A stretch of 63,455 bases of DNA, the filler included, from Stramenopiles sp. TOSAG23-3 (lineage: Eukaryota), in assembly GCA_900128585.1 (NCBI GenBank). It is 5 parts of 5 records of this genome, joined end to end, with 100 filler letters (N's around TTAATTAATTAA, not from the genome) between each part and the next. Parts side by side here need not be neighbours in the genome. Positions count along the whole stretch, not along the records: positions 1 to 19,719 come from LT642392.1; positions 19,820 to 39,520 come from LT642393.1; positions 39,621 to 59,300 come from LT642394.1; positions 59,401 to 61,378 come from LT645187.1; positions 61,479 to 63,455 come from LT645188.1. The stretch is one strand, 5' to 3'. The notes below the pieces were generated by a model that was given only the letters and a program-made list of their open reading frames with translations, had not been told where the DNA came from and ran no database searches. Below, piece by piece: positions 4,937 to 61,557 of this stretch. Within the stretch, counting starts at the first letter, position 1; the number at the start of each line of letters is the position of its first letter. Position numbers and translations under genes: made by a program.

Positions 4937-4995
4937 AATTTTAATTACTTGCCCCAGTTTTTTGCTTTTTAAATAACAGCCAATTTTCTTGTTTT
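4937..4995 (-). repeat. Conserved 3' flank element, interrupted copy
   Basis: Minus strand AAAACAAGAAAATTGGCTGTTATTTAA, then a short insertion, then AAGTAATTAAAATT. Confidence 0.8.
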
Positions 4996-5071
4996 CAATA
5001 AATAAACTTTAGTCTTCTTTAATACGTTATGATATATTTTTCTTTTTTTTTCATTAACTAAAATCACAACA

Positions 5072-5140
5072 GTAGAGATCAGTTCGCAGTACATTAATTT
5101 TAATTACCTAAATAATAGCCAATTTTAATTTTCTTCTTTT
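5072..5140 (-). repeat. Conserved 3' flank element, full copy, just after the DNA-PKcs stop
   Basis: Minus strand AAAATTGGCTATTATTTAGGTAATTAAAATTAATGTACTGCGAACTGATCTCTAC. Confidence 0.85.
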
Positions 5141-5166
5141 TTAAAAAACCTTTCCCCTTTCCCTCA

Positions 5167-6398
5167 TTAAGACCAAAGGGACAACCCTAAGTAACTCCTT
5201 AAATGAACTTGTCGGTCGGTAGCTAAAAACATAAGTCCATCCACTTGCTTCATTACACTCGCATCGTCTGCATCGAGCGCAGAGTACTTGCCCTCCACGG
5301 ATGATTCGAACTCTCCCCGTTTTTGCTTGATGAATTCGAGCACGCTGTCTTTGTACTTGACAAATTTGGAATGTTTATTCTGTAAAACGGTTTGGTGAAT
5401 TATGGTGAACGGGGACTCGCTGTCAAGCTTCTTCTTCGTTGAAGCGAACGCGTGCTCCCGTTGTGATTCGACACTTAATGCTGCAAAGACTTGTTCAAGC
5501 GCTTCTCCGGATCCCGTGCCAGAATTTACACGAGACGGCTTCTGTTTTGGGCGCCATTCCATAAGTGGGTCGTTCACGAAGACTTGCATTGAATCCAAAA
5601 GCACCCTGCTCTCCCGCACGAAAGCTTTCAAGATATGGAAAGAGTGTAAACGCAGTGCCCCATTCCGTCCAGGGTGTGGTGCCATTATACTCTCCATTTG
5701 GGGGTCCAATCGAAACGGTATGAGCTCTGGGATAGGAAGCAAAAAAGAAGCAGAGCCAAAAGTGTGACCAAAGTCGATCGGTATCAATGAAAAATCGTTG
5801 TCGCGCAGCAAGCAGTTGCCGAGATGACGATCACCGATTCCAAGCAAATAGCCCGCTATGTTTATAACTGCTAGAGTGCCGATGGTTTTACTCCGCAAAG
5901 CAATGTACACCTCAGGCGTTGCAGCACGGTCTCTTAGTAGTTTTGAGAACTGATCGTGAGAAAACGTTCCGTCAACCTTTTCTTTGTATTCTTTGTCTGC
6001 TGTACCTCTGTTGGCACGATAAATTCTTTCGTAAGCTTCAGAACAACGGTCGAATTTCATGTTGAATTTCTTCCTTAGTAAAGCGTGACACTCTTTCTTC
6101 TGTGTCTTTCCCACCGTCCCGCTTCCGTGTCCATAAACGTTATTCAGAACCTCTGTCTTGTCAATCCATTCAAGCATCCCCGCATTCATGGTAATGGGAA
6201 CAACTGCGTACGTAATCAGTTTCAAGTCCTTCTTTTGGCAGGTCGGATCTTTCTGCAAAATTGAGTTAACAGTGGCAAACATTTGTTCAACCCGCTGGTC
6301 GTTTCGGAGATCCTCCCCACCTTTCACCAAATAACGGTATTTTTGAAAGTCAGAGCCAACAAATGTGATTCGCGACGGCGCGCGGAGGGATTTAAGCT
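5167..6398 (-). CDS. PRKDC: DNA-PKcs exon 3 (PI3K-related kinase domain and FATC); spliced protein about 3915 aa
   Basis: VKGGEDLRNDQRVEQMF, GIGDRHLGN, IDFGHTFG, LPIPELIPFRL and a FATC-like ATD...LW end. Confidence 0.93.
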
Positions 6399-6486
6399 CT
6401 ACGAAAGAAAATTAATGTTAGAGACATGGCGGGAAATAATTTGTCGTTGGCGGGGGAAGGGGGGGGGGGCAAGGTATTCTACTTAC
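6399..6486 (-). other. Spliceosomal intron 2 of DNA-PKcs (88 nt, phase 1)
   Basis: GTAAGT...CTCTAAC...TTTCGTAG. Splicing restores VL-K-LKSLRAPSRITFVGSD...LVKGGEDLR, the expected PIKK N-lobe. Confidence 0.9.
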
Positions 6487-9400
6487 TTAAAACGGTCTCC
6501 TCGACATAAGAAATGGTCGCGTGCGTTTCCGGCATTGGCATGCTGTGTGTATTACCATAATACTTACGATATTGTCCAGGAATTTCAATTTTGGAGTGGA
6601 GCAAATTTGCCAAGAAAACATTTTCCAATGGCATGGTTGTATTCTCATTTATTTCAATCCTCTGACCCGCTACATTCAGGATGGCCTCTGCAAATAACGA
6701 CAGGTATCGCATTTTGTGAAATTGGACATCCAATGGAATGACTATTTCACCATCATTATCCGGTAACACACTCTTGCCCAAAGAAGATCTTGCCACACGA
6801 TAGTCGTAGTACACTGCCTGAGGGTAGCGTTGCGCCATGTTGATTAGAATTTTGCACAATGTTTTCTTCATCTGCTTCTCGCGGAAAAGGCTGAACATCA
6901 ATGGAATAAAAGACAAAAATTTCCACACGGGGGTAGTTTCACTCGTTCTAGCGAATGTCCCGTATGCCTCTGGGAAATTCATTAGCCCGAGCACCCTTGG
7001 CATTTTTTCAATTGCTTCGGAATTACCACCATTGATTGCAGACATAGTAAACTCGATAAACGACAGTACATACATTTCTTTTTTTGAATTGTCCCTTCCC
7101 TCCTCCGTTAAGCCCTCGATTAAGTCCTCCAAAAACAGTGAGCATCGAAATGAACCTTCTGGCGATTTTGATTCTTTGAACGACTGTATTGCTTCTTCGA
7201 TGAAGCCGTGTTTTTGATTCTCCGACAACCCAGGATTTGCGTATTTCTGCACTGCGATATTTCCGAAAAGCACATAGTAATCAACGACGCTCTCGTTGTT
7301 AGACGTGGTGTCGCGCAGCTTATCAATTTCCAGTCTTTTTAAAATACGTTCGGCGTTGGAAAGGTACTTTGCCGCCTCTTTACGCTGCACGGGGTCGAGC
7401 GATGCGGCACGAACTTTAGCATTGGTGAAAACAATGTTTGCTACCTTGATTTTGTCTTTAAGAGGGGGCTCGGTCCCCAATTCATACAGGTAATCCTTCG
7501 CTTCGCGAACGAAGTCCAATGCCATAGTTGATTTGTTCAACAATGTCAAACCATACGCTACGTCGTAACAGCTATCGATTATAGACCTGTAGACGCTGTC
7601 GGAATTGACAGGCAGTTCACTCAAACATCGACGGCGCATCTTGTGCAAGTCCGTCCACACTGTAGGGTCATCGTAAATTTGCGAAGGCCAGCTTTTTTTC
7701 CATCCCTGGCGCAAAATTGCAAATTCTTTCTCATCTTCCTCAAGATTGTTCTCTGCTAATCTTTGGTAATACGAAACAAAGTCTTGGCAAGTTATCAAAA
7801 GTGGCAGCCTCTTCAGAATATTGTGCTTTGCAGCAAACGCGAACTTGCTCAAACTATTGTACGAATCCAAGAGAGTCTCTAACTCCTTCCACAGCAAGCC
7901 TTGCAGCCCGTGCCACTGTTTCTGAGTTAATTTTTCCCAAAATTGGCTCTCGAACGCATCGGGTACACTGGTTGAACCGCTCCCTCCCCCCTCCGGGGCA
8001 CGCTCGTGTCCCATTTCTCCGTAAGACTGCAGTCCCTGCACGATTTCCTCTTCGTTTAAATCTTGGTACAAAGCAGCCAAAGAATTCCAGCCTTGCTTCG
8101 ATTCATTAATACGAAGAATGTCCTCAATAGCCACAATACCAGAAGCATGATTCAAGGTGTTTTGGGCCGCACTTTGTACGGCAGGCAACTCAATTCCGGC
8201 TACCCTTGCGCCAGACTGCGTTATGCGCGACAATAAATCGAGTAAACTATGGACGAAAAGAGTGTCCTGGTTGCCGCTGCCCGCATTGTCGCAATTTAAA
8301 GTTTGGACAATGTCTTCCCCAATTTCTCGAACGACACTGTCGCTTCCATTTGGAGGACGGTTCGTCCTCCGTTGCTGCTGCGGCTGGAACGATTGGGCAA
8401 TCAGTTCGACCGCAACCGCGTGTCCAACCTTGTTATCGTGGGCACACAATTTCGCCAGAGGGTCTATCATATCTCTCAATTTGATTTGCACGTCGGGTAA
8501 TTCCCCGACCCGATATTCCCGTGTCAGCACAGGCTTGCTTTCGCTCCCTGCTCTGTTCTGGTTTTCATTATTTCCAAAACGTGCCGGTAACTCGGGCACG
8601 GCAAAACCATTGTTGGTTTGCAACCTAACATTTGGAGATGTCAAATTTTGTTCAACCGAACTATTTGTACTTTGAGTCAGCGAAAACAATTGCCGACTGG
8701 CGTCTTGGGTCGCACGAATTACGTTATGACTCGATACTTGGGAATTTGATACCGACATTGACTGTGAGTTCCATTCCTCTTCCATGTCCAACGCCATACT
8801 AACGCTTTGTGTAGAAGGAGCCGCCAGAGACGCAACGAAAGTAGCAAACAAGGGCTCCATGTAAGATTGATTCTGAGTCTGGCTACTACCACGCACATTG
8901 CTGAGATTGATGCTATGGAAACTGTTTGCCTTGTCCAGGGGCTGGTGGCAGCCTTTCAAAAACTCGTTGTCGGTGTAATCAACGTTTGACCGCAGCAGTT
9001 CAAGCATCAGCCCACAGCTGTACGAAGACCAGGTTTGTTCCAAAACGTTTCCCACCTCAAATACGTCTTTCTGAATCAAAAACTTTGCCCTCTTGATAGC
9101 GGTAGAAACGCTCGAGTCACTGTGCCAAAACCTGTACAACAACGGCTGAATTATGTCGACGCTCTTGTCTGCTAGCCCGTACAGTAGCAAGGGTCGTACA
9201 AAGGACGATTTTCCTTCTGCCACTAAAAGTTTGTCCATACTAATGCACAGGTTGTAGAACCTTAGGCGCACGTTATCATCATAGTGATCGATAAACGCTG
9301 ATGCGGCACTGCGGACAGCGGGGGCATTCGGATGCCGCCTGCTGCTTATTGTAAAATGGTCTTGCAAATTCAACCATTCTGTCGGTGGTAAAGCGCTCGT

Positions 9401-12400
9401 CCAGGTGCGCAATATCGACAGCAGCGCGATTTGGGTGTCGGTGTGGGTGTCTGCTGCCAGCCGATTTATTGACGGGTAGATGTTTTGAACACACACCCTC
9501 AAATCTGCCAAAGAATGCTCTGTCTCGCGGTAATAGCACAAAACGTGATCGACCACGCGTAAGGCCAGAACAAGATTATTATGGTTGAGCATATTGATGG
9601 TGCTCAACAGATTTTCAATAAATCTTTTCTGGTGCGTATATTGTGGGCCTAAAATAACGCAACTTTCGAGCAAAGAGGTAGTGTGCTGTTGGTTGCGGGC
9701 GTTGTATTGCATACGTAGCAAAGAGCGCGCTGTTGTTATGAACTCACTCATATTCACTTCACTGTCTACAAATTTGACGGTGCCAGCCCGTGCAAGTTTC
9801 GCGGCAAGTGATGCCGCAGCGCATCGAACAGGCTTTGACTTGCCGTCAAATATGAGCCCTAGAATGCCCACATCTCGGCTGTGTAAAAAGCTGTTCACAT
9901 CAACCATCTTCTCCGAGGAGCTCCAATTCCACTCCAAGTGTTCGACAGACAGTGACAGCAGATTCAAGGCTAGCGCTTTCAAGCTGTTGCTGCGACGATG
10001 CCAAGTCGCGCTATTAACATTATGAAATGACACCAAAAACACAGAGTGTAACCACTCCGTTGTCTTCACGGATCGCATGTCATCGCTGCGAATGAACATG
10101 TCCATCACTACAGATAAATCAAGCTTGGTCGCGCGCTGTGCATCGCTTTTAGTCCAAGCTTTCAAACAAGATTCAAAGTGCGCCATCTCGCTCTCCAAGT
10201 TTCTGTGGTGGGGAAACGCCAATATTTTCATCCACATGTTAAAGAACTTTTCCATGACAACTTGGTCGGTATTTATGGTTCTGCTTCTATCATAGCGCCC
10301 TTCCCACTGTGCCAGTATAGCCGTACACTTCAAGAACAATTTGTGAAACGAGGGGGATGATACCCCGCGCAGGTTACCGTATTGAACCAACGTATCCAAC
10401 ACAAACATTTGCCACGTGCGAAACCCGCACTGGGTAGCAAACTCGTCGAGAAACAACTGAAAGTAGTGTGGTCTTTGCACAATAACACATAATAAAAAGA
10501 TTTTAATATGCATTGGAAGAAATACGCCGGAATCCACCTTGCAGGCCATTTTACACATCGTATCCATGAAAGCGGGAATCGGACTGTTTGGTACTCGTAC
10601 CCACTTCTTTGGCCCGCTATTTTCAGAGTCGTCAAGATTGACGTCAGCATACTCTGCCCAAGCGTCTTCCCCGTAGTCGGACGGCAGTGCCGCACTCTTA
10701 TTGAATAAGGTGTCCAATGTTGCTACTACAGTCTCGAGCAAGAGGTTGTTCGTTTTGCACCAAGGCTGCGATGGATAATCTTCCTCCAATATAAGGAATT
10801 GCCACCACTTCTCGACGTTTTCATACTTTGAAAACAAACATTGGCTCTGAACAGATATTTTCTTCTGCGTCCGGATAATCATGTGCGCTAAGCATACGTA
10901 CGCCGTCACCTTCTGAAAATGATTCGTCTCAGACGAGTCAATGCATTGTTTTGCCTTTTTATTTACAAGACTTGTAAGCGCAGTTTCTTTTCCGTTCAGA
11001 AATGCTTTTGAGATCGAGGTGGCATTTAGTACATTGTGCAGACCGAACCCAGGAACGTTTCGGACGATCTGCAATTTTATCTGAACATCGTTCAAGCGTT
11101 CGTACAATACTTGCAATATGCGAAATGCGTAAGCATTGGAAATGTCATTGCCCGCTTGATCGATCTTGAAAATTAAGGAATGCAAGAGCGACTTTCCATC
11201 CAGAGCTTTGTATTCCGTTAAATATATTTTGGCAATAACATTGTCCTGAGTGCTTTCATTTGAAGCCACATGCAGCAAGTATGGTAAGCACAGGCACTCC
11301 ATAACTAATTCCTTGTAGTCTGGGGGTGACTCTTTGTCAAAAATGGCAAACAAAGTAAACTCCATAAAATTGTGCCTGCTGCTAACGGCATTTATTTTAG
11401 CGTTTGCAGCGGACGGGCTGAACATTTCGATGGCATAATTTTGAACTATTCCGGTCAGCCTTTCGTTGATGTATTGTCTCCTTTTGTGGTTATAACCATC
11501 TTCGCTCAAGTGAATACAAATTCGGCGAAGCAACAAGGTGCAGTGGATGCCGCCTAAACGCAGCGAGCGCAACGAGATATCTATGGCCTTAAAATGATTT
11601 TCTTCTGATACTGAACCTGCGGGCAGGCTTTCTGACGGGTTTTTTGGGAATATAGAAGCAGTAAAAATAGACTTGCTCAATAGGTGAAGAATGGCATCTG
11701 ACAACCCTTGGTTGGAAAGCGTTGGGTCAATGCTAAGATGTTTCAAGCAAACTGAGGCTGCGCGGAATCCGTACATTTTTAACTTAAATAAACACTGAGG
11801 TTGTGCAGCGTCATCCTTTATTTCCGTCAAAATGAACCGAATTAAATTTTCCATGAAAGATCCATGATCAGCGTTCCCAACATTGCACACCTCCATCAGT
11901 GGAATCAACAATTGCACATAATACAGGACTTCTTCAGCACTTGATCTCATTTTTATATCACGAAAATAGTTTGTAAAGCTGGAGATTACAAGGGTCCTAA
12001 TTTCTTCAGTGGCGATGATTTGACAATTTGCATCGCATAACGAGGAAATAAAACGCCTCAGAAAGTGCAGCATGGCAGATTGACTAAATGACAACGTGAT
12101 CAAATTTGTCTTGATTCGGGGCCAAACCGTGGCACTGCCGAAAAACTTAATTAGTTGGTGGACCACGGGATGGTGCACAATTACGTTGTTTTGTGCGCTT
12201 GGTGCGTAAGCAAATATATGGGCACACAGTGACGATTGAGACAAGGCTTCAACCACAACATCGGGGTCAATGTTTGGGTAAATCTCGATTATAAACTTTA
12301 ATACATCTACAAGCACCTCAGCTGTCTCTGCACGGACGTATTCGTCCAATTCTTTAATCTGGTCCAGCAAAGCTTTGCAAAAAGCACTTTTCCATTGCAG

Positions 12401-12613
12401 AAATTCCGAATCGCTGTCGAAACACTTGCACAAAGCTTGCGCCTTATCAACAAAAACGATCCCTTGAAACTGCAGTACCACATGCCGATAATGTGTTTCA
12501 ATAGAATTCTCTTCCTCGCCAGTTTTGACAAAAAGAGTGACACCGTTTGTTTCCACCAGCCTTGCTTCCTCTCTCAGGCACTTTAGTAGCACTTCGGACA
12601 TCCACTCCGATTC
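6487..12613 (-). CDS. PRKDC: DNA-PKcs exon 2 (middle HEAT region, S/TQ cluster, FAT domain)
   Basis: REYRVGELPDVQI, SQ/TQ cluster (SSQTQNQS, RATQD, SLTQ), AQRYPQAVYY, IEIPGQY. Phase-1 donor TTAA|GTAAGT at 6487/6486. Confidence 0.9.
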
Positions 12614-13145
12614 CTGGGAAAAAGTAAAATCTTATAGTGTTAGACATTTAATTCAAACTAAGGGAAGAGGGGAAGAGGGGAGGAGGGGGTAAATGAGCTC
12701 AGGTATATCCCATGTGCCTGTACAATTGGCTGTTCATTGTCATTTCATCAAATCAAGGACGAACCTTTGTCTTCGCCGTGAACCATGAAAGGTTCGGGCT
12801 TTAAAATATCAAAAGACCAAAAATGACTTCGCTTGATGCCCACACTTTCTATCATTTTCATCTATGCCGATGCAAAGGAGAAAATAACAAAAAAGACCTA
12901 CTTTTCTCGGAACAGAGTCCAGTCAAAGCACTTTTATGCCTTCATTCAGCAACAAAATTGGTTATCGCATGACGAGAACCACTTCGATGCTGAATAAATT
13001 TCTAAAAACCAAGTTAGGGTTAGCAGCATTGAACTTTGCCTACACAAAGCAATACTTCGTCGGTGAAAGTGTGTGTACAAGGTAGAATTTATTCATCATG
13101 GCTCAGGGAAAGTTTGGAAAAGTATGAATTTGAAGGGGGACGTAC
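12614..13145 (-). other. Spliceosomal intron 1 of DNA-PKcs (532 nt, phase 0), host of a ncRNA
   Basis: GTACGT donor, branch-like GTCTAAC near 12645, acceptor TTTTTCCCAG ending at 12614. Splicing joins ...VVDT|ESEWMSEV... in frame. Confidence 0.85.
12694..13105 (-). ncRNA. Intronic 412-nt box C/D RNA; candidate telomerase RNA (template CUAACCCUAAC)
   Basis: TGAGC (13105-13101), C, C box ATGATGA (13099-13093) ... D box CTGA (12702-12699), GCTCA (12698-12694), forming a terminal stem. Template-like CTAACCCTAAC at 13023-13013 lies 1 nt after a long hairpin. Several nested 7-11 bp helices. Confidence 0.75.
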
Positions 13146-16100
13146 GGTGTCGACAACAGCAGCAATCGCCTCGTAAGATGTGTGCTGCAATTCTTTAAAT
13201 GCCTTGGCGCTACGGCACGCAAATTTATGCGGCGAAAACATTGCTTGTGTAATGAGATTAGACAACAAGCTTATAAAAATGTTTTGATCGTGCTCAGTGT
13301 TTGCTGGGGAGAGAAAAAGTCTCTTGGCACACATTCCTGGGACAGAATGGACCGCGAGAATCACTTCTTTCGTAAATTGAAGAATATCAATCAGCAAGCG
13401 GTCTGAGAAAACCGTCTTCTTCATTACGGCACGGTAAAAGTATCGGAAGACAGACGCCCGCGTCACAGCTGAACCTGCCATCTTGTCTTGACCACCTAAT
13501 AAATGAACGTCGTTTTCGGTGTGTCGCAGCCCTGCTGAATCGACCGGCTTTCTTTTCGGTCGTTGTCCGTCCTGTACAGGGTTCCCTGTCTTCTGAAAAG
13601 CAGCCGTCGGATCGCACATTTTTAGTTTTAGAGCCCAAGCAAAACTAAAAAGGCAGCCATGAAATGAATCAATCCACTTTTTAGTTTCGCGTATGCCGTA
13701 TAGTGTGCTTTGCATGAGTAGGTCATTCTCGAAGATTTTCACGACACTAATTCGCCTTTTTTTTATCGAACGATCGTGCCACTTTCTGCATCCTCCAAAT
13801 CGTGCAATTGCTATTGATTCAAACAGCGAAGCAGCAGTCTGCCGGTACGCGCTATGTTCTCGGTTACAGGTTGCCTCGAAGAGCTTGTCCATTAAATCAT
13901 CAATATTCTTAACAATCTTCCCCTTGTATTCTACTGCCGAGTTCCGGACCATAGCATCGTCGCATACAATACGCTGAAAGTGCAAAATGGATTTGTGTAA
14001 CTCCGCCCCCGCCTCGAAATTGACACTTGCGACACCATTGATCAACTTCCTGCCTGCGTACTTCAGGGCAAACATAACGTAGTATAGGGTGTCTAAAGTA
14101 TATTTTGACACCAAAGTCAATTCTTCTCGAAAATCCCTGTACATCAAGTTCAGAGTCATTGCTGCTCCCATCTGCTTGTCTGGATTCTGACTTTTTAGCA
14201 TATTAAACAGACGGCGCATCAACGAATCTATTTCAACAGGCGAAGAACGGGGAGGTCTGGCATGACCTTTCTTTCGTCGCGACCGCGGTGCTGAAACAGA
14301 AACGGACTGTTTGATCGCCCATTTCAAAAACTCTGCCAACGCCCTCGTTGACACATCTTTCAAAGCTGCGTTGGAGCCATTTGACGCCCCCTCAACAATG
14401 CAATCGAGCCAAACGACAGTCTCTGGCGCTGTTGATTTTATCCCCATCCTGTTACTGGCTTTCTTCTTACTAAACCAGTGCACCAACTGCTTGACCAGCG
14501 GCTCAAACATATTCCGTGTAATATCGTGAGTATCGGTTGATAATCGAAGTATGCACGGAAACAGCTCGCGGTAAATTTTGCACAAATGTTCCTGGTTTTG
14601 CATTGGCAGCATGTACAATATGATGGCATGAAGGGTTTCGCACGCCGGTAGCTTGGATTTTGAGTCACCAGCTCCGCTCTCTGACAATTCCATTATCTGC
14701 GGGAGCAAATCGTCCAGCGGCAAGTTGATGGTCGTGTCTCCATCTAAATGAAATGTTACTTGAACCTGGTGGGAACTGTTCCATCGAAGCCCCTCAGCCA
14801 AATGGGTTGCCGACGATCCAACGACGCCATGCCCCAGGCCACCAATGCGACCTAGGAATTGCAGTACACAACTGTGCAACGTCTGTGCCCCCCTGGAAGC
14901 TTCCGAATCGCCAGTGTCCTCTTCCATTCTGTTTGACAAATAATTGTTCAGTTTAGGCAGAATTTCAGGCAAGTAAACTTTTAGTTCGTCCAAAGGTAGA
15001 GCGTTCCGCCAGTGTTCGAGTGCCCGCATGGCAACCCACGCAATCGGTCGGTAGCTACGACCTGTTGTGAGCGCGCTTAATAACACCGGTGTCTGTATGT
15101 GCAAGTTCATTAGTTCGATGGGGGCATTCAAAATCATATTTGCAGATGCTACAAACAGCTCATCCTGATATTGGCGTGACCGTATTTGAACGACCTTTAC
15201 GTAATGGAACAATTGGTCAAACACCTGCTGCTTTCTGTGCGTGCCATTTCCGTTTTGCTTACAGCCTTTGAAAAAGCCAATACCATTGCATATGTCAAAA
15301 AATATTTTAAAGAGTTTGTAAAAGCCCGATATTTCTGGGTTCCTTTCGCTGACAGGAATTAGGTTTTCCAGTACAGTCAAAATCCAATTGCTGCTACACC
15401 GTGCCAGCAGTTTGGCATACTCGTCGTTGCCGGAATAAAATGAGACAAAAAACTTTACCAAGTTCAAAAACCTGCCGAAATCGTGCGGGTTTGCTGGAAA
15501 TTGGTTCGTCTGGCGTAGCATGTAATTGTTGATATCAGTGTTCTCGCCTTCGTCTTCCTGACTTTCTTCCGGGTTCACCTCCGCACTGTCAGTCTCTTCT
15601 TCACCATCATTAACAAAAAGTCGCAAGTTCAACCTGGAGATGATTTCTAGCATGCATTCCATCAAACGGTTGCAAATATTTTGCGGTGCATCTTGAGATT
15701 TTTGCGACCCGGAACTTTCCATATCATCCCGATCGCCATGAAGTTGCCCCGCCTCACTCACGACTAAAGAAAACAACTCGGAATAAATTACGGGCATTGC
15801 TTGTGGCCTCTCTGCTGTTTCTGCAAGTAGCTGGGGGTGGTCCATGGCGCGGTCAAGGCCATTCATCACGATGGCGTTCAACACGACCGCGTGCGCTTCT
15901 GTGTTATGCTCCAAACCTCTCAGTAGCTGAACCAGGTAACGAGAAAAACTCAGCTTTTGTTTCAATTTACGATTGCTCCACACACTGTGGTAGGTGCCCA
16001 TTATATTTTTGAGTACGGTATTTAGTGCATCGGACATGCCCACGTCTATTTCACGGGTGGGAAGAAGAGACATTATATTGCCGCACGCACACAAAAGGGA

Positions 16101-17534
16101 CAGTTGTCCCGCTCCCACTTTGTACAACAAAATGTGTGAGCCAGCGTTCTGGCCGGAACTACCCTTCCCGATGGTACTGTTCGCAATACTGCTGTAGCGA
16201 TCCAACAGAAAGGTAACGATATTCTTCAACTCTTGTGTTTTCCAATACTTGTGTATGGCGCCCGCAAAATCACCAATCATATGAGTGGCAAAGTCTCTAT
16301 ATCGCCTGTCGTTGTGGTTTAAAAATGCCTTTAAAGGCTCTATAACTTCGGAGAACAACTGTTTCTTCTGCTCTTCGTTTTCTGCCCCGTCGGTGGGAGA
16401 GGACTGGATAAATTGTCCCAGGACACGAACCACTGCCCTCAGTGCACCCGGAACTGCGTTGGCTACAGTTGGGCTGTCGCTCAAGAAACAGCTTAGTAAA
16501 CGCCTGAAAATACTAATCCCATCTTCCACTATACACTTCTGAAAATAATTCGAATGAGCAGCAATAAATTTCATCGCTGTGACTGGAACCCTGAACCGGT
16601 TCATATCCTCCGGCACCTCCATTGCCTGTACAAAGATACTGTTGTAGACCTCTTTCGTCTTTCTTGGGCGAAAACCTTCCACGCTCCCATCCGTGCACGC
16701 GTACAAGGCAAAATGCATCCCAGATATTGCACCAGCAATAACGTTGGCCTTTTGGTTGCTTGTTTTGGCATAAGCAGTCTTCAAACTATCTGCTAATGTG
16801 TTTAGGATACTACCAGACAACTCTTTCAGTTCTCGGGGGTAAACGTAAAGGAGCCGCCCTAACATTTCGAGAGCAACGCCCTTCACTTTCCCGTAAGCTT
16901 TGGCAGTCTTCCCCTGCAAATCACTGACGCATTCATAAAATGGACGGGTCGTCCGGCCATTGTTATTCATTCGCTCTGTGAGTCCCATAGAATGTGCATC
17001 AATCCACGGCCGTTCGGAACGCGAGGTCTCCCGGGGGGACGTCTCCAAAATCTCAAACAGGGGAAAGAAGGCCTGGTACTGCACGGGCTTTCTCTTTTCT
17101 CTGGAAAGCATTCCATAACAAATTTTCTGGAGGCGGGTCAGGTACAACTTCAAGGGCTTGACACCTTCCTCCTTGATAAGACTTGACAATTGCTGGAGCG
17201 CTTCCACGCATGACTCTGTTTCCGCCGCCACATCTTTTCCAGCATAGCACCGGATTGACATTTTTTCCAACGACAGCAAAATATTTGGAGGATCATTTGA
17301 TTGAAAAATAAGCGACGTAACAGTTGCCAATAGTGACTTGCTGCTCTTCACACGCCTTGATCTGCACAGAGAGAATATAGAATGCACCATAGTTTTTGGC
17401 GCAGTGCCGCTTTCGTTCATCCCATTTCTTGAAAACGTTGAAAAGAGGCGTAACCAACGCTTCAGGTCCGAAATATCAGCAGCAGAAGTCGCAAGGGTAG
17501 ACGTTGGGACGAAACGAGTCGAATCGCCCATCAT
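13146..17534 (-). CDS. PRKDC: DNA-dependent protein kinase catalytic subunit, exon 1 (1463 codons, HEAT repeats)
   Basis: DNA-PKcs-like motifs (ACETLHAIILYM, FEPLVKQLVHWFS, ALAEFLKWAIKQS, LNLMYRDFREE). Phase-0 donor ACC|GTACGT at 13146/13145. Confidence 0.85.
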
Positions 17535-18537
17535 TTTGTTGACGAACTATTCGTGGCTGTACTGCAACCTAGTAACTCTTCGGAAAGGGGTTGCACCAAC
17601 ACCGACAAATCCCGATTGTAATCCTATTTTCGATTTCTTGTTTGCCTTTTCTCGATTCGACAGTCCGATCCAAATCTAATACTTTTGCCTTCAATTCTTA
17701 TTAAAAGGAAATTCATTCAACAAGAAAAAAAAGAAGATTTTTCTTCCCCATTTCTTTCTTTCTTTTTTTGTTTTTTGTTTTGGTGTGTTGTTGTTGTTGT
17801 TTTGTTGTTGATATATAAAATAATAATAATAATATGACTGACGATGAAGAAGATTAGATAATTAAGGTACATATGTTATATATCATATATCCATCACTTC
17901 ATGTTATTAGTTATATAGTTATATATAATATTGCATAGAAATCATCTCGATAATTAAGATGTATATTTATCCTCCTTAACTGATTAGAAACGAGCTTTGA
18001 TTTCTTTTCTTTTGTTGTTTTGAGTTTTGAGTGACAAAAAAAAAATAATAATTAATTTTATTTATTTTTTTACATTCTTCTAAATTTACACCTACACATC
18101 ATTGGGGGGGACCACCCGAAGCTGAAATCAAGAATCACAACAATCATCAAGAAAGAAGAAATTATTATGAAGCAAGGAAGAAATGATGAAAACCCGCGAA
18201 AGTGCAATGAGCATTTACTATACGTATAAAATATACTACATAATACCCTATCAAAATATTTCGTTAATAATTTTTTTGTTTTGTTTTTTTTGTTGTTTTT
18301 TCACCAATTGTTGAGATTTCTTCTTCTGCGCTGAGATGAAAAACAGAATAAAGAAACAAATCAAATCTTACTACCTGGTCACTGGGATCATCTTTGATGA
18401 TTGCGCAGTGTGTAAGTACGTACATATTCTGGTAGTGAACGGTTTAAGGATACGCTTCTAAAAAATTCAACACATTAACATGAAGGTGGATTGAGCACAC
18501 GAGTACAAATTACGATTCCCACAGGACTTCTCCGCAA

Positions 18538-19642: not shown

Positions 19643-19719
<77 letters not shown>

Positions 19720-24267: not shown

Positions 24268-24303
24268 TTTTCTTTCTTCTTCTTCTTTTTTTCTCTTCTT
24301 TCT

Positions 24304-24409: not shown

Positions 24410-24660
24410 GAGTCGTCTAGTCTATAATATTATTATTATTTACTGTATTACATTTTTTATTATTATTATTTAAGTTCCATACAATATACGCATTTATTGA
24501 TTTATGCAATTGATAAATTGATTTTGCTAAACCCGTATTCCATTCGCAACGAAATGTTACGAACCTGACATTATCCAAGATTTCCCCAGATATTGGATCA
24601 ATTTTCTAGTACTACGGCCGACGGACGGACCGTTACTACCACGCAGTGGGTTCGGGTGGA

Positions 24661-25593
24661 ATGGCAACTGCTTCCTCCCCTGCGCGCGGCGGGGCCTCGA
24701 CTTTTGGGAACGAGAACCTGAAAAGGGCAGGGATAGGGGGTTTGGCGCTGGCATTTCGAATAATCTCTCCTGTTTTTATATTGGTAGCATTACTTTTGAT
24801 CGGGGGAGCAGTCAATCAATGGTTCTTACTGGTCCTTCCTATGTGGACAACTGTTCTGTCCCCAGTGTACTGTGTTGCGACAAGTGTGGGGATTTTTTTT
24901 ATTTTCAATATCGTTTATAATTATGCCAAGTGCATCACGGTGTCCTCCGTTTACGCGCATCCCGACGGGGACGAATGCGGGGACGGGGAAGCGGACGACG
25001 ATTTTAGATTTTGCAAGCACTGCAAGCACGTGACGCCAGAAGATTCCCAGCACTGCTTTCTTTGTGGACAGTGCGTGTACGACTTGGACCACCATTGCCC
25101 TTGGATAATGAACTGCGTCGGGCGGCACAACCACAGCTACTTTTTTCTCTTCTTGTTTTACGTTACGACTGGTTGCCTTTTCTTTTCGGGCTTTTCTGTT
25201 CCTCCGTTTTACAGTTTACACTTCCGCCATAAAAAATTTTCAAAGTATCAACCGAAGCACCTGGACCATGGGATGCTGTCATTGAGTGCCATCTTACCGC
25301 TGACCCTTTCGGTCGCAGTCGGGGCCATGATGGTTTGGCACGGGTATTTGTTGGCCACGTGCCAAACGTCGTTGGAATTCCCAAACAATTTCTGGAAGAA
25401 GTACAAAGCGTACAAGCTTGGCAACTCGTGGACACACCTAAAGGACAGGGGAATTGTAAGGAACTGGCAGACACGTTTTGGTGTCTCCGGGGAGAGGCTG
25501 TGGTGGATTCTTTGGCTCTTCCCGTATTTGCGGACGAAGAAAAGAGGGGAAGAGTACCGGTACAAGGAATTGCGCAAGCCTCGAACGGTGTGA
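24661..25593 (+). CDS. DHHC palmitoyltransferase (ZDHHC16-like)
   Basis: CKHC...HCFLCGQCVYDLDHHCPWIMNCVGRHNH, four TM segments, QTSLE motif. Confidence 0.93.
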   Translation: MATASSPARGGASTFGNENLKRAGIGGLALAFRIISPVFILVALLLIGGAVNQWFLLVLPMWTTVLSPVYCVATSVGIFFIFNIVYNYAKCITVSSVYAHPDGDECGDGEADDDFRFCKHCKHVTPEDSQHCFLCGQCVYDLDHHCPWIMNCVGRHNHSYFFLFLFYVTTGCLFFSGFSVPPFYSLHFRHKKFSKYQPKHLDHGMLSLSAILPLTLSVAVGAMMVWHGYLLATCQTSLEFPNNFWKKYKAYKLGNSWTHLKDRGIVRNWQTRFGVSGERLWWILWLFPYLRTKKRGEEYRYKELRKPRTV

Positions 25594-25770
25594 GAGAAGT
25601 GGTATGGTAACTGAACCCAAATCACGAGAAAGAGATTACGGCACAGTATTCTTTCGAACAAAAGTGTTCGAGTACATTCCTCGTAAGAGCAAACGCTTTA
25701 TTCTAGAGGGAGTCAAATGTACAAAAATACGAGAATAAATTATAGAACCAAATGTAAAATTGATTAAATG

Positions 25771-25836
25771 AAACAAGAAAATTGGCTGTTATTTAAGTAG
25801 TTAAAATTAATTAAGTAAACTGCGAACTGAAATCTA
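25771..25836 (+). repeat. Conserved 3' flank element, full copy
   Basis: AAACAAGAAAATTGGCTGTTATTTAAGTAGTTAAAATTAATTAAGTAAACTGCGAACTGAAATCTA. Confidence 0.85.
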
Positions 25837-25953
25837 GATTAAATGTCTTGAACAAAAAAGTACGAGTAAATCAATACAAGTTGAGCAATCGATCCGATCG
25901 CCACCTCCTCCTGAATTATCCGGGCACGATACGTTGCGCACACCAGGTTCGTT

Positions 25954-27378
25954 TCAAAGGAGCTCCCTCAGCTCTTTCACTTTCTTCGACGGCGTTCGCT
26001 TTCGTCTCGACGAGGGGGTCTTGGCCCGTTTCGTCTTTTGCTTCCTTTTCACCGCTGTCCTTTTCCCTGAAGCCTTTGGTTGGCGAACCGCTTTTGGATT
26101 CGCAGCTACTACCCCAGCAGGATTCTTGGCGACGTAAACGGCTTGCAAAATGACAGCGAACAAGAGCCACTGGACGCATACGCAGAGCTTCTGGCGGGTT
26201 GTCGCGAAAGAGTCCAAAGAGGTCCCTACGACCACCAAGATGTTCAACGGGATCCGAAAGACGTTCATGATAGTCGCTTGGAGCTCTTGAGGCATGACGG
26301 CGCTGCGGGCCGAACCCCCACAAGCAAAGCTGGCCCCAACGCAGGTTTCGAACAGAAGAAACCCGCCATAGACAGCGTATATGTTGTCCGGGCACATTGC
26401 CGGGACCGTCAACGCCACCGTAGCCACGACAAATATGGAAAGGGTAATGACTCCGCTGTCGTATATTTTCGTCGCACGTTCGTACAGAAATCCCCCGAGC
26501 GTAATGCAGACCATGAAGGAAGAGAAAATGGACCCTAACTTGATGCCCGAACCCCACACATGATACATGGCAGGGACCCAGTTGAACACAAACGTGTACA
26601 TGGCCCCTTCAAAAAATGCTTGGGTAAACCCGACCAACAGGATCCTGTAGTCCCCCCAAATGGTTTTCCACGCCGCCGAAAAGTTGGAAAACGTGCTGGG
26701 CACCGAGTTCCCGACGTTCTCGTTCCACGTGACCATGACATACCCAAGGACGATGGTCGTGACCAAAACGGCCGTACGGAAAGGACCAATGTTCCCCATG
26801 TATGAAACACTAATATCTGCGGTAAAACCGGCTATGATGGCCACGATACCGTTTCCCATCTGGCCGTACGCAAACGTCTGGGACAGCCACTCCTCGGGGA
26901 ATTTGCGGTTTCTATGCTCGGTGACCATCCAGCTCTCGAAGGAGGTAAAGAGAAGAGATGTCGAGATACCACCAAGAACGCGGCCTAGGAAGAGGATGCG
27001 TACGTCTTCGTACTCCTCCATCGTGTTGATGGCTATCTCAAGGGCGCAGAAGACGAACACCCCCTTTTTTCTCCCCAGTGAATCAACGAGACTCCCCGCA
27101 AATGTTCCGAAAACCCCAGAGCACAGGAAGCCGGTAATGAAAAGGTAGGCGATGACAGGTTTCCCCCACGCGCTAGGGTGGTATTTGCTCAGCTCCCCTG
27201 CGTCTTGAAGGGCAGCAGTGTCCATCGAAGAGTAGCCTTCGTATAACGCGTACATGTGCGTGCCTTGTAGCCAGTCGGCGTACATGGTCAACAAGTAAAC
27301 CACCAAGTATTGCGTTTGAAACAAGCGAAACTTGGCACGCTGATGGCTGGTCTCGCCAACTTCACTCGACGCTGTCAT
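25954..27378 (-). CDS. MFS molybdate-anion transporter (MFSD5/MOT2 family)
   Basis: YLVVYLLTMYADWLQG, LGRVLGGISTSLLFTSFESWMVTEH, FEGAMYTFVFNWVP, IMNVFRIPLN. Confidence 0.9.
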   Translation of the reverse strand: MTASSEVGETSHQRAKFRLFQTQYLVVYLLTMYADWLQGTHMYALYEGYSSMDTAALQDAGELSKYHPSAWGKPVIAYLFITGFLCSGVFGTFAGSLVDSLGRKKGVFVFCALEIAINTMEEYEDVRILFLGRVLGGISTSLLFTSFESWMVTEHRNRKFPEEWLSQTFAYGQMGNGIVAIIAGFTADISVSYMGNIGPFRTAVLVTTIVLGYVMVTWNENVGNSVPSTFSNFSAAWKTIWGDYRILLVGFTQAFFEGAMYTFVFNWVPAMYHVWGSGIKLGSIFSSFMVCITLGGFLYERATKIYDSGVITLSIFVVATVALTVPAMCPDNIYAVYGGFLLFETCVGASFACGGSARSAVMPQELQATIMNVFRIPLNILVVVGTSLDSFATTRQKLCVCVQWLLFAVILQAVYVAKNPAGVVAANPKAVRQPKASGKRTAVKRKQKTKRAKTPSSRRKRTPSKKVKELRELL

Positions 27379-27893
27379 GGTTCAAAAGGAATGCTATAGA
27401 AAACAAAAAACAACTACAAAAATAAACAGAAAATAAAAAAAAACAATTGTTAATTTGCCTCGATTCTAATATTTGTATTTCTTTCTCACTAATAAAAGTA
27501 GAAGAAATAATTTGCACTTACTGTATATACAAATCTATAAACCATATCTTTTGTAACAAAATTTCCTTATCAAATATTATAAAGATTCCAGTCTCGAAGT
27601 GCCTTGGTATTTATTACCTCGTATTAATACCAATTGGTGGTAGTGTGGGTACGTACTGATCGGATTTTTGGTGTTTATTTTTTTCGGTTCCCATTATTTT
27701 CAGTGAAGAATGAAATATTAATAACACCTGCTGTATAATGAGAAGTGTGGTGGTCCCCGATTGATTTTTAATTATTATTATAAATAAATTAAAAAAAAAA
27801 AGAAAATTTGTATAATAATATCTAGAGATTATTACTATTTTACAAATATAATTTTCCAAGGACAAAACATATTTTCCAAGACAGGCATAATAT

Positions 27894-28976
27894 TTACAAT
27901 ATGTGAACCTCAGCATTTCGATTATATAAACTGCAAAAGATTCGAACAGTTTCGTGTCTTTCGTTTTTGACTTTTCCTTTAAATATTTTCCCAGACGAAT
28001 CTACCTGGATGCGCAGGTGTACAAATTTTCCTTTCTCGTCATTCTGTACCGTTAGTTTCAATTTTGACCCTGTGTGAAAGGATGGCAACGCTTTGTTTGA
28101 CGACGGTACTTCTTCATGGAGGGAACCGTACAAGTTTTCCAAGCATAACCCCGATTGGCGGATAATTTGCTGGGAAGAATCTGGGGGGAACAATTTTGAG
28201 CTGCGTGCGACACCAAAGAAATAGCACATTCTTCCCGGTTTGTTTTTCATATGAAACACAATTTCTTGCGTTTCCCCACATTTTATTGCCGGTTCTAGAA
28301 ATGCCGTGCCTTGGTTTTGACGGGTGCAGTTGGTATGGCAGCATAGCACGTTGCCCGATTCCTTGTCTCGTATAGAGAGAAATTCCTTCGCGATCATGCT
28401 CGGTTTTTCGATGAAACGGAAGTAATTCTCCCTCCCACCACCATCATTGTCATTTTTTCTCGTCTCGATGGCTTGGCTTGTTTTTTTCAGCTCTCGAGAG
28501 TCATTGATGTTTGCAATCGACGCTTTAGGTGGAAGGGATTTTCGTGCTGGTGTGGTAGTGACCGTGATTCCCCTGCCACGCAAAAACGTGACACAGTTCT
28601 GTACATATGCATGCGTCTTTGGCAAAGGGTAGGCGTATGCTGCGTTCTGTATGATGACACCGTCCTTTGTAACAACGTTGTACCAAACTTGTTCTCCTCG
28701 AGCTCACCGGTGTCGCTTCTTCGAGGGCACCAAACGTTTATAGTTGACATCGTGAACGGGTACGTAAAATTTCGTTCTATTTGCCATTACCGCCCTATCC
28801 GTCTTTGCCAATACCAGCCCACTACCAAGTTGTACATGTAACGAGTAAAGCTGTTCGTCATGATTCACATACTCAATCCCCTCCCCCACCCCCCCAGTAT
28901 CCTTCAACACTTGAATTGGATCAACCTCGTGAACCGCTTTTCTATTTTCCCACTCTTTCACCCTCCCTTGCCGCAT
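27894..28976 (-). CDS. DUF427-like plus SPRY-like protein with in-frame TGA at 28706-28704 (candidate selenoprotein, 360 aa)
   Basis: ORFs 28704..29003 and 27894..28625 share one frame and are separated only by a TGA. The joined sequence FYVPVHDVNYKRLVPSKKRHR*ARGEQVWYNV...NAAYAYPLPK...NCVTF follows the DUF427 pattern. Confidence 0.65.
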
Positions 28977-30933: not shown

Positions 30934-31043
30934 AAGATTCAACCCTCGCCGACCCTCGTATTTAACCCCTCTTTTCGCAGTTTTCCTGCTGAGGCAGTGG
31001 GACTAAGATAGATAAGAATTATACACGTATTATTTGTAGAACA

Positions 31044-31111
31044 AAAACAAGAAAATTGGCTGTTATTTAAGTAATTTTAAAAATTAATGTACTCTGCGAA
31101 CTGAACTCTAC
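31044..31111 (+). repeat. Conserved 3' flank element, full copy
   Basis: AAAACAAGAAAATTGGCTGTTATTTAAGTAATTTTAAAAATTAATGTACTCTGCGAACTGAACTCTAC. Confidence 0.88.
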
Positions 31112-53612: not shown

Positions 53613-53686
53613 GAAAGAAAATGGCCGTTAGAATTGATTAAAAACAAAATACTGGCGGAGAATTAATTTATTGATATGATAATCAT

Positions 53687-53732
53687 AAAACAAGAAAAAT
53701 TGGCTGTTATTTTTTATAGTATTTAAAATTAA
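53687..53732 (+). repeat. Conserved 3' flank element, partial copy
   Basis: AAAACAAGAAAAATTGGCTGTTATTTTTTATAGTATTTAAAATTAA, 75 nt after the dynein stop. Confidence 0.8.
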
Positions 53733-53863
53733 AGAAAAAAAGAAGGTCATAAAATATAATGTCAGATAAGTTGTAGTTTGCGGAAGGAACATTTACCGAA
53801 AATTATTCTCTCTCATCTCTCCAACACACACCCCACGATTCTCTCGCTCATGCTATCTTCTAT

Positions 53864-59400: not shown

Positions 59401-59402
59401 CG

Positions 59403-59885: not shown

Positions 59886-60060
59886 TTGAGTACGAAGGCC
59901 CGGAAAAAGTGTACAGATATGAATCAGTATTCTTATTTTTTTTCGTAATTAATCCAGCCACCTAAGTGAGCTTAAGTGGACCGTAAAATTACGTAAATAT
60001 AATATTTGCACGACTTCGCCGAGTCTGCCGGCTTCAAGTCCAATTTTTGTGCCACAACTT

Positions 60061-61170
60061 TTACGACGGCACCTTTTCAAAGGAATGCTTCGTAAAGGTT
60101 GTTAGTCGATGTCCCCTGGAACGATTTAGGTTGCAGTTGACGAAACCCACAATTGATTTCGCTTCTGGGACGGTGCAGACCAGGGGACTTTCCATTGGAA
60201 ACCGTTTAAATGTGACCGACTGGTCTTTGTTATGTACAGGGTACGCAATAATGCATTGGTGGGTTAACCCAACGTTTAGTGCATCAGTCGGGTCGCAATC
60301 AGCGAGTAACTCTTTCAGTGCAGCTGCACCGTTTCCTGCGCGCGCTGGCCCCAACACTTCCGCGATAGCAAGTTCTAATACATTCAACACCTTGCTCCTT
60401 TCGTGACCTTCAAAATCGCGATGGGATTGGTGCTTGGGCTGCTTCTTTTTTGGAGCCCCTTGAAACCGTTTCTGTATAGATTGCATGCAATTGAATGCTT
60501 TTTCGACCACCGACAAGGCGACGCCACCGGTCACTGGGTCCAGCAATTTCAACGATCGGCAAACAGCATGCGCCGTCGACATAAAATGTTCTCTCGGTTC
60601 ACTCCTCAAGTATTCGCGTTCGTCTATTTCGTCCGTGAGCAAAACTTTGTGCAGCGCCAGGCTGCTCGGGGGGGACGCTGAAAAAATACGAGGGTTCTTG
60701 AAAGCAATATTTTTTGCCTGTTTCCACGTGCCGTCGATAGCAACCAAATATTTCACAGGGCGGGGGAGGGTACCTTTTGACTCGACTCCGTGGTCCGACG
60801 CTTCCACTTTCATCTCAATCTCTTTTGCCAGCTCTGCCACAGGGCGAGACCCAACGCCTGGATACAAGATACAACTTTTTCCGTGCTCGTTGTGCGACAA
60901 GGCCTCGTCCAAGACCGGGTATTTCCCCTCACTAAAATCAATATCGACGCACACATGGCAGTTCTTTAGACACAGTTTCAACAGTAAAACGGTGTTCAAG
61001 CTTTTCTTCTTTGCCTCTGTCGGGTGCTGCAAAACAATAACGACGTAATCGGTTGACACTTTCGCTTCCGGCAGGCTATCGCAGAGGCACGACGGGATCG
61101 GTCGCGTACAGGTCGCGCACCGAGCACGCCGCCGAATTCGCACACCTTTGTCGACCGTAAGTGTCGCCAT
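60061..61170 (-). CDS. DTW-domain tRNA-uridine aminocarboxypropyltransferase (DTWD2/TapT-like)
   Basis: CATC...CLC, LQHPTE, LYPG, AIDGTWKQAK, RSEP...MST. ATG at 61170. Confidence 0.9.
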   Translation of the reverse strand: MATLTVDKGVRIRRRARCATCTRPIPSCLCDSLPEAKVSTDYVVIVLQHPTEAKKKSLNTVLLLKLCLKNCHVCVDIDFSEGKYPVLDEALSHNEHGKSCILYPGVGSRPVAELAKEIEMKVEASDHGVESKGTLPRPVKYLVAIDGTWKQAKNIAFKNPRIFSASPPSSLALHKVLLTDEIDEREYLRSEPREHFMSTAHAVCRSLKLLDPVTGGVALSVVEKAFNCMQSIQKRFQGAPKKKQPKHQSHRDFEGHERSKVLNVLELAIAEVLGPARAGNGAAALKELLADCDPTDALNVGLTHQCIIAYPVHNKDQSVTFKRFPMESPLVCTVPEAKSIVGFVNCNLNRSRGHRLTTFTKHSFEKVPS

Positions 61171-61378
61171 CTCAGTGGAAATGGAAGGGGTGGGGGTCAA
61201 GAAACGTGGGAACTTTCACTGTGTAGAGAAATCATGATTGTAAAGAGATAGTACAATCTTCGCGCCGCCCATGTTGTTTTCAATGGATGTCAAGAAGGTT
61301 AGTTACAAACTATTCATTTACTTTTTTTTCGTTTGTCGCTAGTCGTCTATTTATAATTTAAAAAAAAAAAAAAAAAAG

Positions 61379-61478
61379 NNNNNNNNNNNNNNNNNNNNNN
61401 NNNNNNNNNNNNNNNNNNNNNNTTAATTAATTAANNNNNNNNNNNNNNNNNNNNNNNNNNNNNNNNNNNNNNNNNNNN
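61379..61478. other. Artificial contig linker
   Basis: 44 N, TTAATTAATTAA, 44 N. Confidence 0.97.
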
Positions 61479-61519
61479 AAACTACAGAACCAAGTTAGGA
61501 TTAGGGTATGAGGAAGCTA

Positions 61520-61557
61520 AATTTAATTACTTAAATAACAGCCAATTTTCTTGTTTT
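61520..61557 (-). repeat. Conserved 3' flank element, 5' half
   Basis: Minus strand AAAACAAGAAAATTGGCTGTTATTTAAGTAATTAAAT, 35 nt after the stop at 61592. Confidence 0.85.

What the first reader, a model, noticed from the sequence alone, without database searches (positions are those of the whole stretch)
4937..61557. Conserved ~65-nt element downstream of unrelated genes on four contigs
Seen: consensus AAAACAAGAAAATTGGCTGTTATTTAAGTAATT(T)AAAATTAA..(G)TAC(TC)TGCGAACTGA.(C)TCTA at 5140-5072(-), 4995-4937(-), 25771-25836(+), 31044-31111(+), 53687-53732(+) and 61557-61520(-). Every copy is in sense orientation about 27-180 nt after a stop codon (PRKDC twice, DHHC, Fn3-like, dynein, Tcp10-like). 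Wherever both neighbours are visible, it lies between convergent genes. No TIRs, target duplications or poly-A tail are evident. Inference: a lineage-specific 3'-end processing, termination or anti-collision signal, or a short dispersed element targeted to 3' flanks. It is far longer than usual poly(A) signals.
Basis: seen in the sequence. Interest (0 to 1): 0.75.

Follow-up and report, generated by a model that had tools for sequence, protein, structure and literature searches.

The report
T-tailed retrotransposon stubs behind genes
The repeated 65-base motif is the constant tail end, read from the opposite strand, of a still-mobile copy-and-paste element (an R2-like retrotransposon) in a marine protist, whose mostly tiny truncated copies survive almost only just behind genes; it is not a dedicated signal for ending messages.

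Summary
All six copies are real, but they are not a 65-nt unit. They are 3' tips of a heavily 5'-truncated non-LTR retrotransposon, read antisense. Walking away from the fixed end leads to a 1,748-aa open frame with reverse transcriptase and a restriction-like endonuclease region (closest solved structures: R2); its 3' UTR ends in the motif, in T's, without poly(A). The genome holds 1,577 exact matches to a 16-mer of the tip (control 0). The positional claim holds: in an independent 400-kb sample tips occupy 15/53 convergent, 7/55 tandem and 0/51 divergent spacers. The orientation rule does not (30:17, p=0.08). A termination role is unsupported: most convergent spacers lack a copy. Whether the element aims at gene ends or only survives there is open; two in-frame copies inside reading frames show that selection contributes. 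The scan reached the same reading earlier on other pieces of this genome.

The parts
4937..4995 (+). 3' tip of the retrotransposon (element sense is +), with a 20-nt internal interruption; 25 nt behind the stop of an LRR gene (+), 171 nt from the PRKDC stop (-)
5058..5140 (+). 3' tip, about 80 nt, last bases rearranged; 26 nt from the PRKDC stop
25771..25836 (-). 3' tip, 66 nt, between DHHC (+) and MFS (-) genes
25762..25770 (.). Target-site duplication GATTAAATG, left copy
25837..25845 (.). Target-site duplication GATTAAATG, right copy
31044..31111 (-). 3' tip, 68 nt, between Fn3-associated (+) and SWIB (-) genes; beyond the ends of both oligo-dT RNA contigs of one study
53687..53746 (-). 3' tip of another 3'-UTR variant (same as in L003), between dynein heavy chain (+) and a protein kinase (-); probable duplication TCATAAAA at 53683-53690 and 53747-53754
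61479..61557 (+). 3' tip cut by the contig edge; 76 of 80 bases identical to the 3' UTR of the near-complete element in L128; 34 nt from the stop of the Tcp10-like gene

Best explanation
The motif is the 3' terminus of an autonomous non-LTR retrotransposon with one long ORF (reverse transcriptase, then CCHC finger and restriction-like endonuclease). Inferred cycle, by analogy with R2: the endonuclease nicks AT-rich DNA with a stagger of about 8-13 nt; the freed 3'-OH primes reverse transcription at the U-rich 3' end of the element RNA (no poly(A)); synthesis usually stops after tens of bases, often restarts or is followed by another insertion at the same spot, and the junction is closed with a target duplication or with small deletions. 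Shown: ORF, fixed 3' end, staggered 5' ends, duplications, empty alleles, confinement to gene 3' flanks. Inferred: TPRT chemistry, A:U priming, and the cause of the confinement. I put the cause mostly on purifying selection in a genome that is 69% coding, with promoter DNA intolerant and the strip just past transcript ends tolerant (about 55%), possibly helped by a real insertion preference (rival 1).
For: First-look candidates fall 853, 241, 29, 8 with distance from the fixed end. L128 holds an unbroken 1,748-aa frame (open at its 5' edge) whose 3' UTR ends in the motif; G000 has pieces of it at 84-99% amino-acid identity over residues 704-1383, and a sister frame at 48% over the RT core that hits Pfam RVT_1 at E 8e-7, just under the cut-off. 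A profile of 12 relatives hits R2 proteins best in the PDB (E 1.6e-27, 3e-27), LINE-1 next (7e-16). Junction repeats of 9 nt or more in 17 of 109 copies against a mean of 1.2 and a maximum of 5 in 500 shuffles (looser test 25 of 113 vs 3.6). Empty sites: L176 (336-nt copy, 12-nt duplication) vs L257, and L174 (381+57 nt) vs L255, flanks 99% identical. A 5' inversion in L044/L064. For selection: two 42-nt, in-frame, stop-free insertions with duplications inside called reading frames, among 39 tips; two element fragments in divergent spacers under wider criteria; orientation only weakly biased.
Against: The L128 frame itself has no Pfam RT or endonuclease hit and no PDB hit as a single sequence. 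The endonuclease fold match is weak (best Z 5.6, R2; Foldseek best E 0.12). The intact frame comes from another sample; the RT core of this exact family was not recovered from G000. Most copies show no clean duplication (92 of 109 under 9 nt). Against selection alone: 0 of 51 divergent spacers although they hold 44% of spacer DNA and the same density of T-run/A motifs (17 per kb in all three classes), and repeated insertion at one spot (L174, L004). One of the two in-frame cases lies in the last 80 nt of its frame, and the other frame has no Pfam match.
Confidence: 0.9

Rival explanations
1. Same element, but actively aimed at the zone where RNA polymerase II terminates (through a host 3'-end or termination factor, or DNA opened there), a protein-gene counterpart of tRNA-gene targeting in Dictyostelium and yeast.
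For: 15/53 convergent, 7/55 tandem, 0/51 divergent spacers; 24, 7 and 0 among 31 two-sided clusters of search-derived loci; 12 of 14 tandem clusters nearer the upstream stop (p=0.013); both presence/absence sites are in convergent spacers; motif availability equal across spacer classes; 2:1 lean of the tip towards the nearer gene (30 of 47, p=0.08); RNA contigs of one study end 36 and 70 nt short of the 31044 copy.
Against: All counted copies are survivors; two polymorphic sites are too few. Copies occur in frame inside reading frames and as fragments in two divergent spacers. Distances to the stop spread from 6 to several hundred nt. No targeting domain was identified; the 5' end of the ORF is missing.
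Confidence: 0.35
2. The tips have been co-opted by the host as termination, anti-collision or mRNA-stability signals, as SIDER retroposons were in Leishmania.
For: Position; 13% of convergent-spacer DNA is element-derived (2,846 of 22,087 nt); both copies on the second window contig are also present in two unrelated DNA runs (X3, X4), so some copies are common in the population.
Against: 72% of convergent spacers lack a tip; empty alleles exist; lengths and orientation vary; alleles differ by indels inside the tip; no fold better than shuffles on either strand; the one RNA run ends before the copy on both sides (weak).
Confidence: 0.07
3. A host cis-acting 3'-end signal unrelated to any mobile element, or a MITE or Helitron end.
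For: Position behind genes; some outward-facing inverted pairs look like TIRs (18 of 80 neighbouring pairs).
Against: Continuity with an RT-endonuclease frame, staggered single-sided truncation, variable-length duplications, empty sites; pairs occur in all three arrangements (46 tandem, 18 head-to-head, 16 tail-to-tail).
Confidence: 0.02

Closest known systems
RLE-encoding non-LTR retrotransposons (clades CRE, R2, R4, NeSL, HERO; PMC4640811 Introduction); in motif layout closest to the CRE group (SLACS, CRE1/2, CZAR, Cnl1, MoTeR, FoTeR; PMC12857005 passages)
   Same: One long ORF with RT followed by CCHC finger and PD-(D/E)xK-like endonuclease region; fixed 3' end; truncated copies outnumber whole ones; target duplications.
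   Different: No fixed multicopy target (the cited review says CRE, R2, R4 and NeSL are mostly target-specific, HERO mostly not); over 1,500 dispersed copies, most under 100 nt; T-tail without poly(A); endonuclease motif spacing expanded; about 200 low-complexity residues after the endonuclease.
R2 (R2Bm, R2Tg; PDB 8IBW, 8GH6, 9DOU, 9NL2/3)
   Same: Best solved-structure match of the RT profile and top-ranked, though weak, match of the modelled endonuclease region.
   Different: R2 inserts at one site of 28S rDNA; this element is dispersed over gene 3' flanks. Clade membership not tested by a tree.
Dictyostelium TRE3/TRE5 and yeast Ty1/Ty3 (PMC5911963 passages)
   Same: Retroelements of compact genomes confined to a safe strip beside genes; TRE3 sits 40-150 bp downstream of its target genes.
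   Different: Those aim at Pol III genes through shown host-factor contacts, and TREs are L1-type with APE endonuclease and oligo(A) tail; here the neighbours are protein genes and targeting is not shown.
Leishmania SIDER1/2 (PMC2323293 abstract)
   Same: 1,000-2,000 short retroposon remnants found almost only at gene 3' ends of a protist.
   Different: SIDERs are extinct, lie inside 3' UTRs and destabilise mRNA; these tips are polymorphic, have an intact partner frame, and the one testable copy lies beyond the RNA contig ends.

Membership tests
Non-LTR retrotransposon (LINE) | Reverse transcriptase of non-LTR type | tested here: met
   RT motifs at residues 448-640 of the L128 frame; profile A2 hits R2 at E 1.6e-27 and LINE-1 at 7e-16; 9 of 12 homologues carry PF00078. 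Single-sequence Pfam and PDB searches of L128 found nothing.
Non-LTR retrotransposon (LINE) | Fixed 3' end with staggered 5' truncation | tested here: met
   Candidates 853, 241, 29, 8; lengths 21-1,196 nt.
Non-LTR retrotransposon (LINE) | Variable-length target-site duplication and empty alleles | tested here: met
   17 of 109 copies with 9-13 nt repeats vs 1.2 expected; 2 empty, 1 filled, 2 not found in 5 flank look-ups.
Non-LTR retrotransposon (LINE) | 3' poly(A) or simple-repeat tail | tested here: not met
   Ends in a run of mostly 4-5 T (63 of 99 tips); no poly(A). That a tail is not universal among RLE elements is recalled, not tested.
RLE superfamily | CCHC finger, then H-N/D, E and PD-(D/E)xK-like residues after the RT | tested here: met
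   C1296-X8-H1305-X3-C1309, H1319-N1320, E1349, D1384, D1442; C, H, C, H and D invariant in 18 aligned relatives; model ranks R2 first, then Prp8 and restriction-type nucleases, Z 5.6, rmsd 3.3, 105 aligned (weak on its own).
CRE clade (SLACS/CRE1/2 type) | REL consensus C[X1-3]C[X7-8]H[X3-4]C[X9-10]RH(D/N)-X19-33-E-X9-21-(R/K)PD-X12-14-(D/E) as given in PMC12857005 | tested here: inconclusive
   Order of residues kept and C-X8-H-X3-C and HN-X28-E fit; first C gap is 7, R is P, QAD lies 32 after E and the last D 57 further. More distant homologues P0010, P0012, P0016 fit the layout better.
CRE clade (SLACS/CRE1/2 type) | Placement in the clade by RT phylogeny | not tested
   No named reference sequences were obtained.
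CRE/R2/R4/NeSL site-specific elements | Insertion at a fixed sequence of a multicopy gene or repeat | tested here: not met
   Flanks of 99 tips share only A/T richness; duplications differ in sequence; no Rfam family in the window.
Gene-targeted retroelements (TRE3/Ty type) | New insertions directed to a window beside a gene class by a host factor | not testable with these tools
   Only surviving copies could be counted.
MITE / DNA transposon | Terminal inverted repeats on a unit of fixed length with fixed-size duplication | tested here: not met
   Single fixed end, continuous lengths, duplications of 8-13 nt, pairs in all arrangements.
Structured RNA or cis-acting 3'-end signal | Conserved fold, fixed orientation, presence at most gene ends | tested here: not met
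   z-scores -0.3 to +2.4 for six folds; 30:17 orientation; 38 of 53 convergent spacers without a tip.

The most novel reading that the evidence does not exclude
An early-branching RLE retrotransposon that has exchanged sequence-specific targeting for targeting of RNA polymerase II termination zones, priming on A-rich DNA ends with a U-tailed RNA (the mirror image of LINE-1), and thereby building a large part of the DNA between convergent genes in a compact marine protist genome.
Probability: 0.3. Interest if true: 0.7.

Novelty: new variant of a known kind. Interest (0 to 1): 0.38.

Why it matters
As it stands: an undescribed, recently mobile LINE family that leaves over 1,500 tiny stubs in a 28-Mb protist genome; anyone mining 3' flanks there for regulatory motifs will find it and should mask it, and its presence/absence alleles are usable population markers. 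If targeting is real, it would be a retroelement that reads the end of protein-coding transcription units as its safe haven, which my paper searches did not find described, and an R2-like enzyme with a transcription-linked instead of a sequence-fixed target would interest genome engineers. If it is selection, it is a clean natural read-out of which intergenic DNA is free in a streamlined genome.

Tried and rejected
RNA structure and Rfam: nothing. TIR/MITE, Helitron and telomerase-like readings: dropped once the RT-endonuclease frame appeared. Pfam RVT_1 search of G000 found 9 places, by their frames LTR-type, DIRS-like and a telomerase-like one (my reading from recalled motifs), none of this family; the family's RT is too diverged for that first look. 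Single-sequence Pfam and PDB searches of the L128 frame: no useful hit. Search for longer, named relatives with alignment A2: none at E 1e-20 among proteins of 2,632-5,000 aa, an ill-chosen length window. Foldseek: no match at E 0.001. Laying four runs on 24450-32600 showed no joint that skips either copy among the 15 joints shown (30 not shown), so no empty allele for window copies; depth at the tips is hundreds to thousands of times the flanks but is no copy number. Flank look-ups for L202 and L161 found nothing in G000. One-sided loci (46 search-derived clusters, 3 in sample and window) were left out of spacer and orientation counts because contigs break on the 5' side of copies, which would fake an orientation bias. 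The sample is 400 kb instead of a planned 600 kb and comes from 24-33 kb contigs, which under-represent long copies. The host lineage was not determined.
Full report
Observation. The window is five contigs of a 28.4-Mb eukaryotic assembly (G000, 7,088 contigs) with long, nearly intron-free genes; 69% of 463 kb was called coding. All six copies are at the stated places. A profile built from 37 tips finds exactly these six in the window and 45 in a 400-kb sample chosen by contig number, against 0 in reversed sequence. A 16-mer of the tip occurs 1,577 times in G000 (762 and 815 by strand), its control 0 times. The five copies with two neighbours lie between convergent genes.

It is one end of a longer element. 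Thirty genomic copies share a sharp boundary on one side and run on for variable lengths on the other, with restarts of the first 20-30 bases and small indels. Walking away from the fixed end, first-look candidates fall from 853 to 241, 29 and 8. Database relatives led to a metagenome contig, L128, with an unbroken frame of 1,748 aa, open at the contig's 5' edge, followed by a 110-nt UTR that ends in the motif. The window copy at 61479-61557 matches that UTR at 76 of 80 bases. G000 holds pieces of the same frame at 84-99% identity over residues 704-1383; its RT core was recovered only for sister families at 40-48%. Several 3'-UTR variants exist, which explains why the window copies diverge after about 35 bases.

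The protein. RT motifs lie at residues 448-640, a CCHC finger with H-N at 1286-1320, and acidic residues at 1349, 1384 and 1442. As a single sequence it matches neither Pfam RT nor the PDB; a sister frame in G000 hits RVT_1 at E 8e-7, 29.4 bits against a cut-off of 29.6, 9 of 12 homologues carry PF00078, and a profile of 12 sequences hits R2 proteins at 1e-27 and LINE-1 at 1e-15. A model of the C-terminal region (mean pLDDT 61) ranks R2 first in both structure searches, but weakly (Z 5.6; Foldseek E 0.12). The residue order follows the SLACS/CRE consensus quoted in PMC12857005 (passages) with wider spacing. So it is an RLE-type non-LTR element; the clade is untested.

Mobility. Junction repeats of 9 nt or more flank 17 of 109 copies, against a mean of 1.2 and a maximum of 5 in 500 shuffles (a looser test that counted one locus twice gave 25 of 113 vs 3.6). 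Some of these enclose a copy inserted beside an older one. Two of five checked window copies have one. Of five flank look-ups from other assemblies, two sites are empty in G000 (L176 vs L257, a 336-nt copy with a clean 12-nt duplication; L174 vs L255, 381 plus 57 nt with a 9-nt deletion at the 3' junction), one is filled and two were not found; a sixth shared locus is filled in both but differs by indels in and beside the tips. The two copies on the second window contig are present in runs X3 and X4, with no empty allele seen. Tips end in 4-5 T in 63 of 99 cases, followed by A/T-rich DNA without a fixed motif.

Position and orientation. In the independent sample, at E 0.05, 39 tips were found: 36 in two-sided spacers, 2 inside called frames, 1 with a single neighbour. 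Occupied spacers: 15 of 53 convergent, 7 of 55 tandem, 0 of 51 divergent, 0 of 4 intron-like gaps (Fisher, convergent vs divergent, p 2e-5), although divergent spacers hold 44% of spacer DNA and are as AT-rich. Search-derived loci give 24, 7 and 0 among 31 two-sided clusters; 46 one-sided ones were left out. Twelve of 14 tandem clusters are nearer the upstream stop. The T-run/A motif that follows most tips is equally dense in all spacer classes, 17 per kb, and 4 per kb in coding DNA. Element DNA makes up 12.9% of convergent, 2.0% of tandem and 0.1% of divergent spacers (window included). Exceptions: two fragments in divergent spacers of one contig under wider criteria, and two insertions of exactly 42 nt, in frame and flanked by duplications, inside called reading frames. 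Gene calls are from my own coding-score script, not a curated annotation.

RNA. In one oligo-dT run, contigs of the two genes around the 31044 copy end at 31007 and 31182, short of the copy on both sides, whereas DNA contigs break inside it. One study, contigs only: a weak hint that the copy lies past the transcript ends. Neither strand folds better than shuffles, and Rfam has no match.

Mechanism. Shown: autonomous frame, fixed T-ended 3' terminus, heavy 5' truncation, duplications, polymorphism, confinement to 3' flanks. Inferred from R2 and LINE-1 biology (recalled): target-primed reverse transcription; the U-rich RNA end may pair with an A-ended DNA primer, the mirror of LINE-1, but support is thin (7 of 17 duplications start with 2 or more T). 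The confinement is either survival or aim. In-frame survivors show that coding DNA is hit and filtered; the empty divergent class and repeated use of single spots fit aim. I give about 55% to selection as the main cause, 35% to targeting, under 10% to host co-option.

Known systems. PMC4640811 (Introduction) lists five RLE clades, four mostly site-specific and HERO mostly not. PMC5911963 (passages) describes TRE3, TRE5 and Ty elements using Pol III genes as safe havens in compact genomes. PMC2323293 (abstract) describes SIDERs in Leishmania 3' UTRs. Searches for a non-LTR element confined to convergent or downstream flanks of protein genes found none in the held library (listings only); on marine protist genomes was seen as a listing only. 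No supplements were read, and repeat databases such as Repbase could not be searched, so the family may be catalogued there. Eight earlier notes of this scan on other pieces of the same genome reached the same reading; I consulted them after my own identification, and they are not independent evidence.

Verdict. A real feature and a real positional bias, but the remnant of a retrotransposon and not a new 3'-end signal. New variant of a known kind; interest 0.38, rising to about 0.7 if targeting of termination zones (probability 0.3) is shown.

Noticed in passing
L091:2190-2300, L096:2660-2760, sample contigs C6544, C6488, C6492: A second abundant 3'-end variant of the same element family, also T-ended, shares the upstream UTR with L128 but has a different last 50 nt; it sits in the same spacers, and the empty site in L255 lies inside one such stub.
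   Followed up: partly
L090:6677-7981: A diverged relative of the element whose frame continues after the endonuclease region into a weak Ulp1-like protease match (Pfam C48, E 0.09), nested behind a copy of the main family.
   Followed up: partly
L249:554-606 (G000:C6562) and G000:C6550:12145-12193: Two 42-nt in-frame insertions of the tip with target duplications inside open frames, each adding 14 residues; the first frame (508 aa, open at the contig edge) has no Pfam match.
   Followed up: partly
window 53640-53655: A possible seventh, very short and degenerate tip 30 nt before the 53687 copy, matching the start of a variant seen in L072.
   Followed up: no
L174:4880-5470 vs L255; L180:6960-7400 vs L006: Alleles differ by small duplications and deletions right beside and inside the tips while genes around are over 99% identical: these spacers look indel-prone.
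   Followed up: partly
sample contigs C6508, C6512, C6520, C6538, C6550, C6556, C6568; window about 36570 and 36840: Several 13-mers recur 100-1,100 nt upstream of coding starts in divergent and tandem spacers: candidate promoter motifs.
   Followed up: no
window 5167-17546: DNA-PKcs is spread over three frames on the minus strand (13089-17546, 6479-12631, 5167-6411), separated by gaps of about 460 and 67 nt, probably introns.
   Followed up: no
L097-L105: G000 holds other RT frames: three LTR-type polyproteins with open frames of 1,309-1,549 aa, several DIRS-like ones and one telomerase-like fragment (labels from recalled motifs).
   Followed up: no
window 61486-61498: The UTR variant in this copy contains a stretch that resembles two telomere-type repeats; it is part of the element (same in L128), probably chance.
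   Followed up: no
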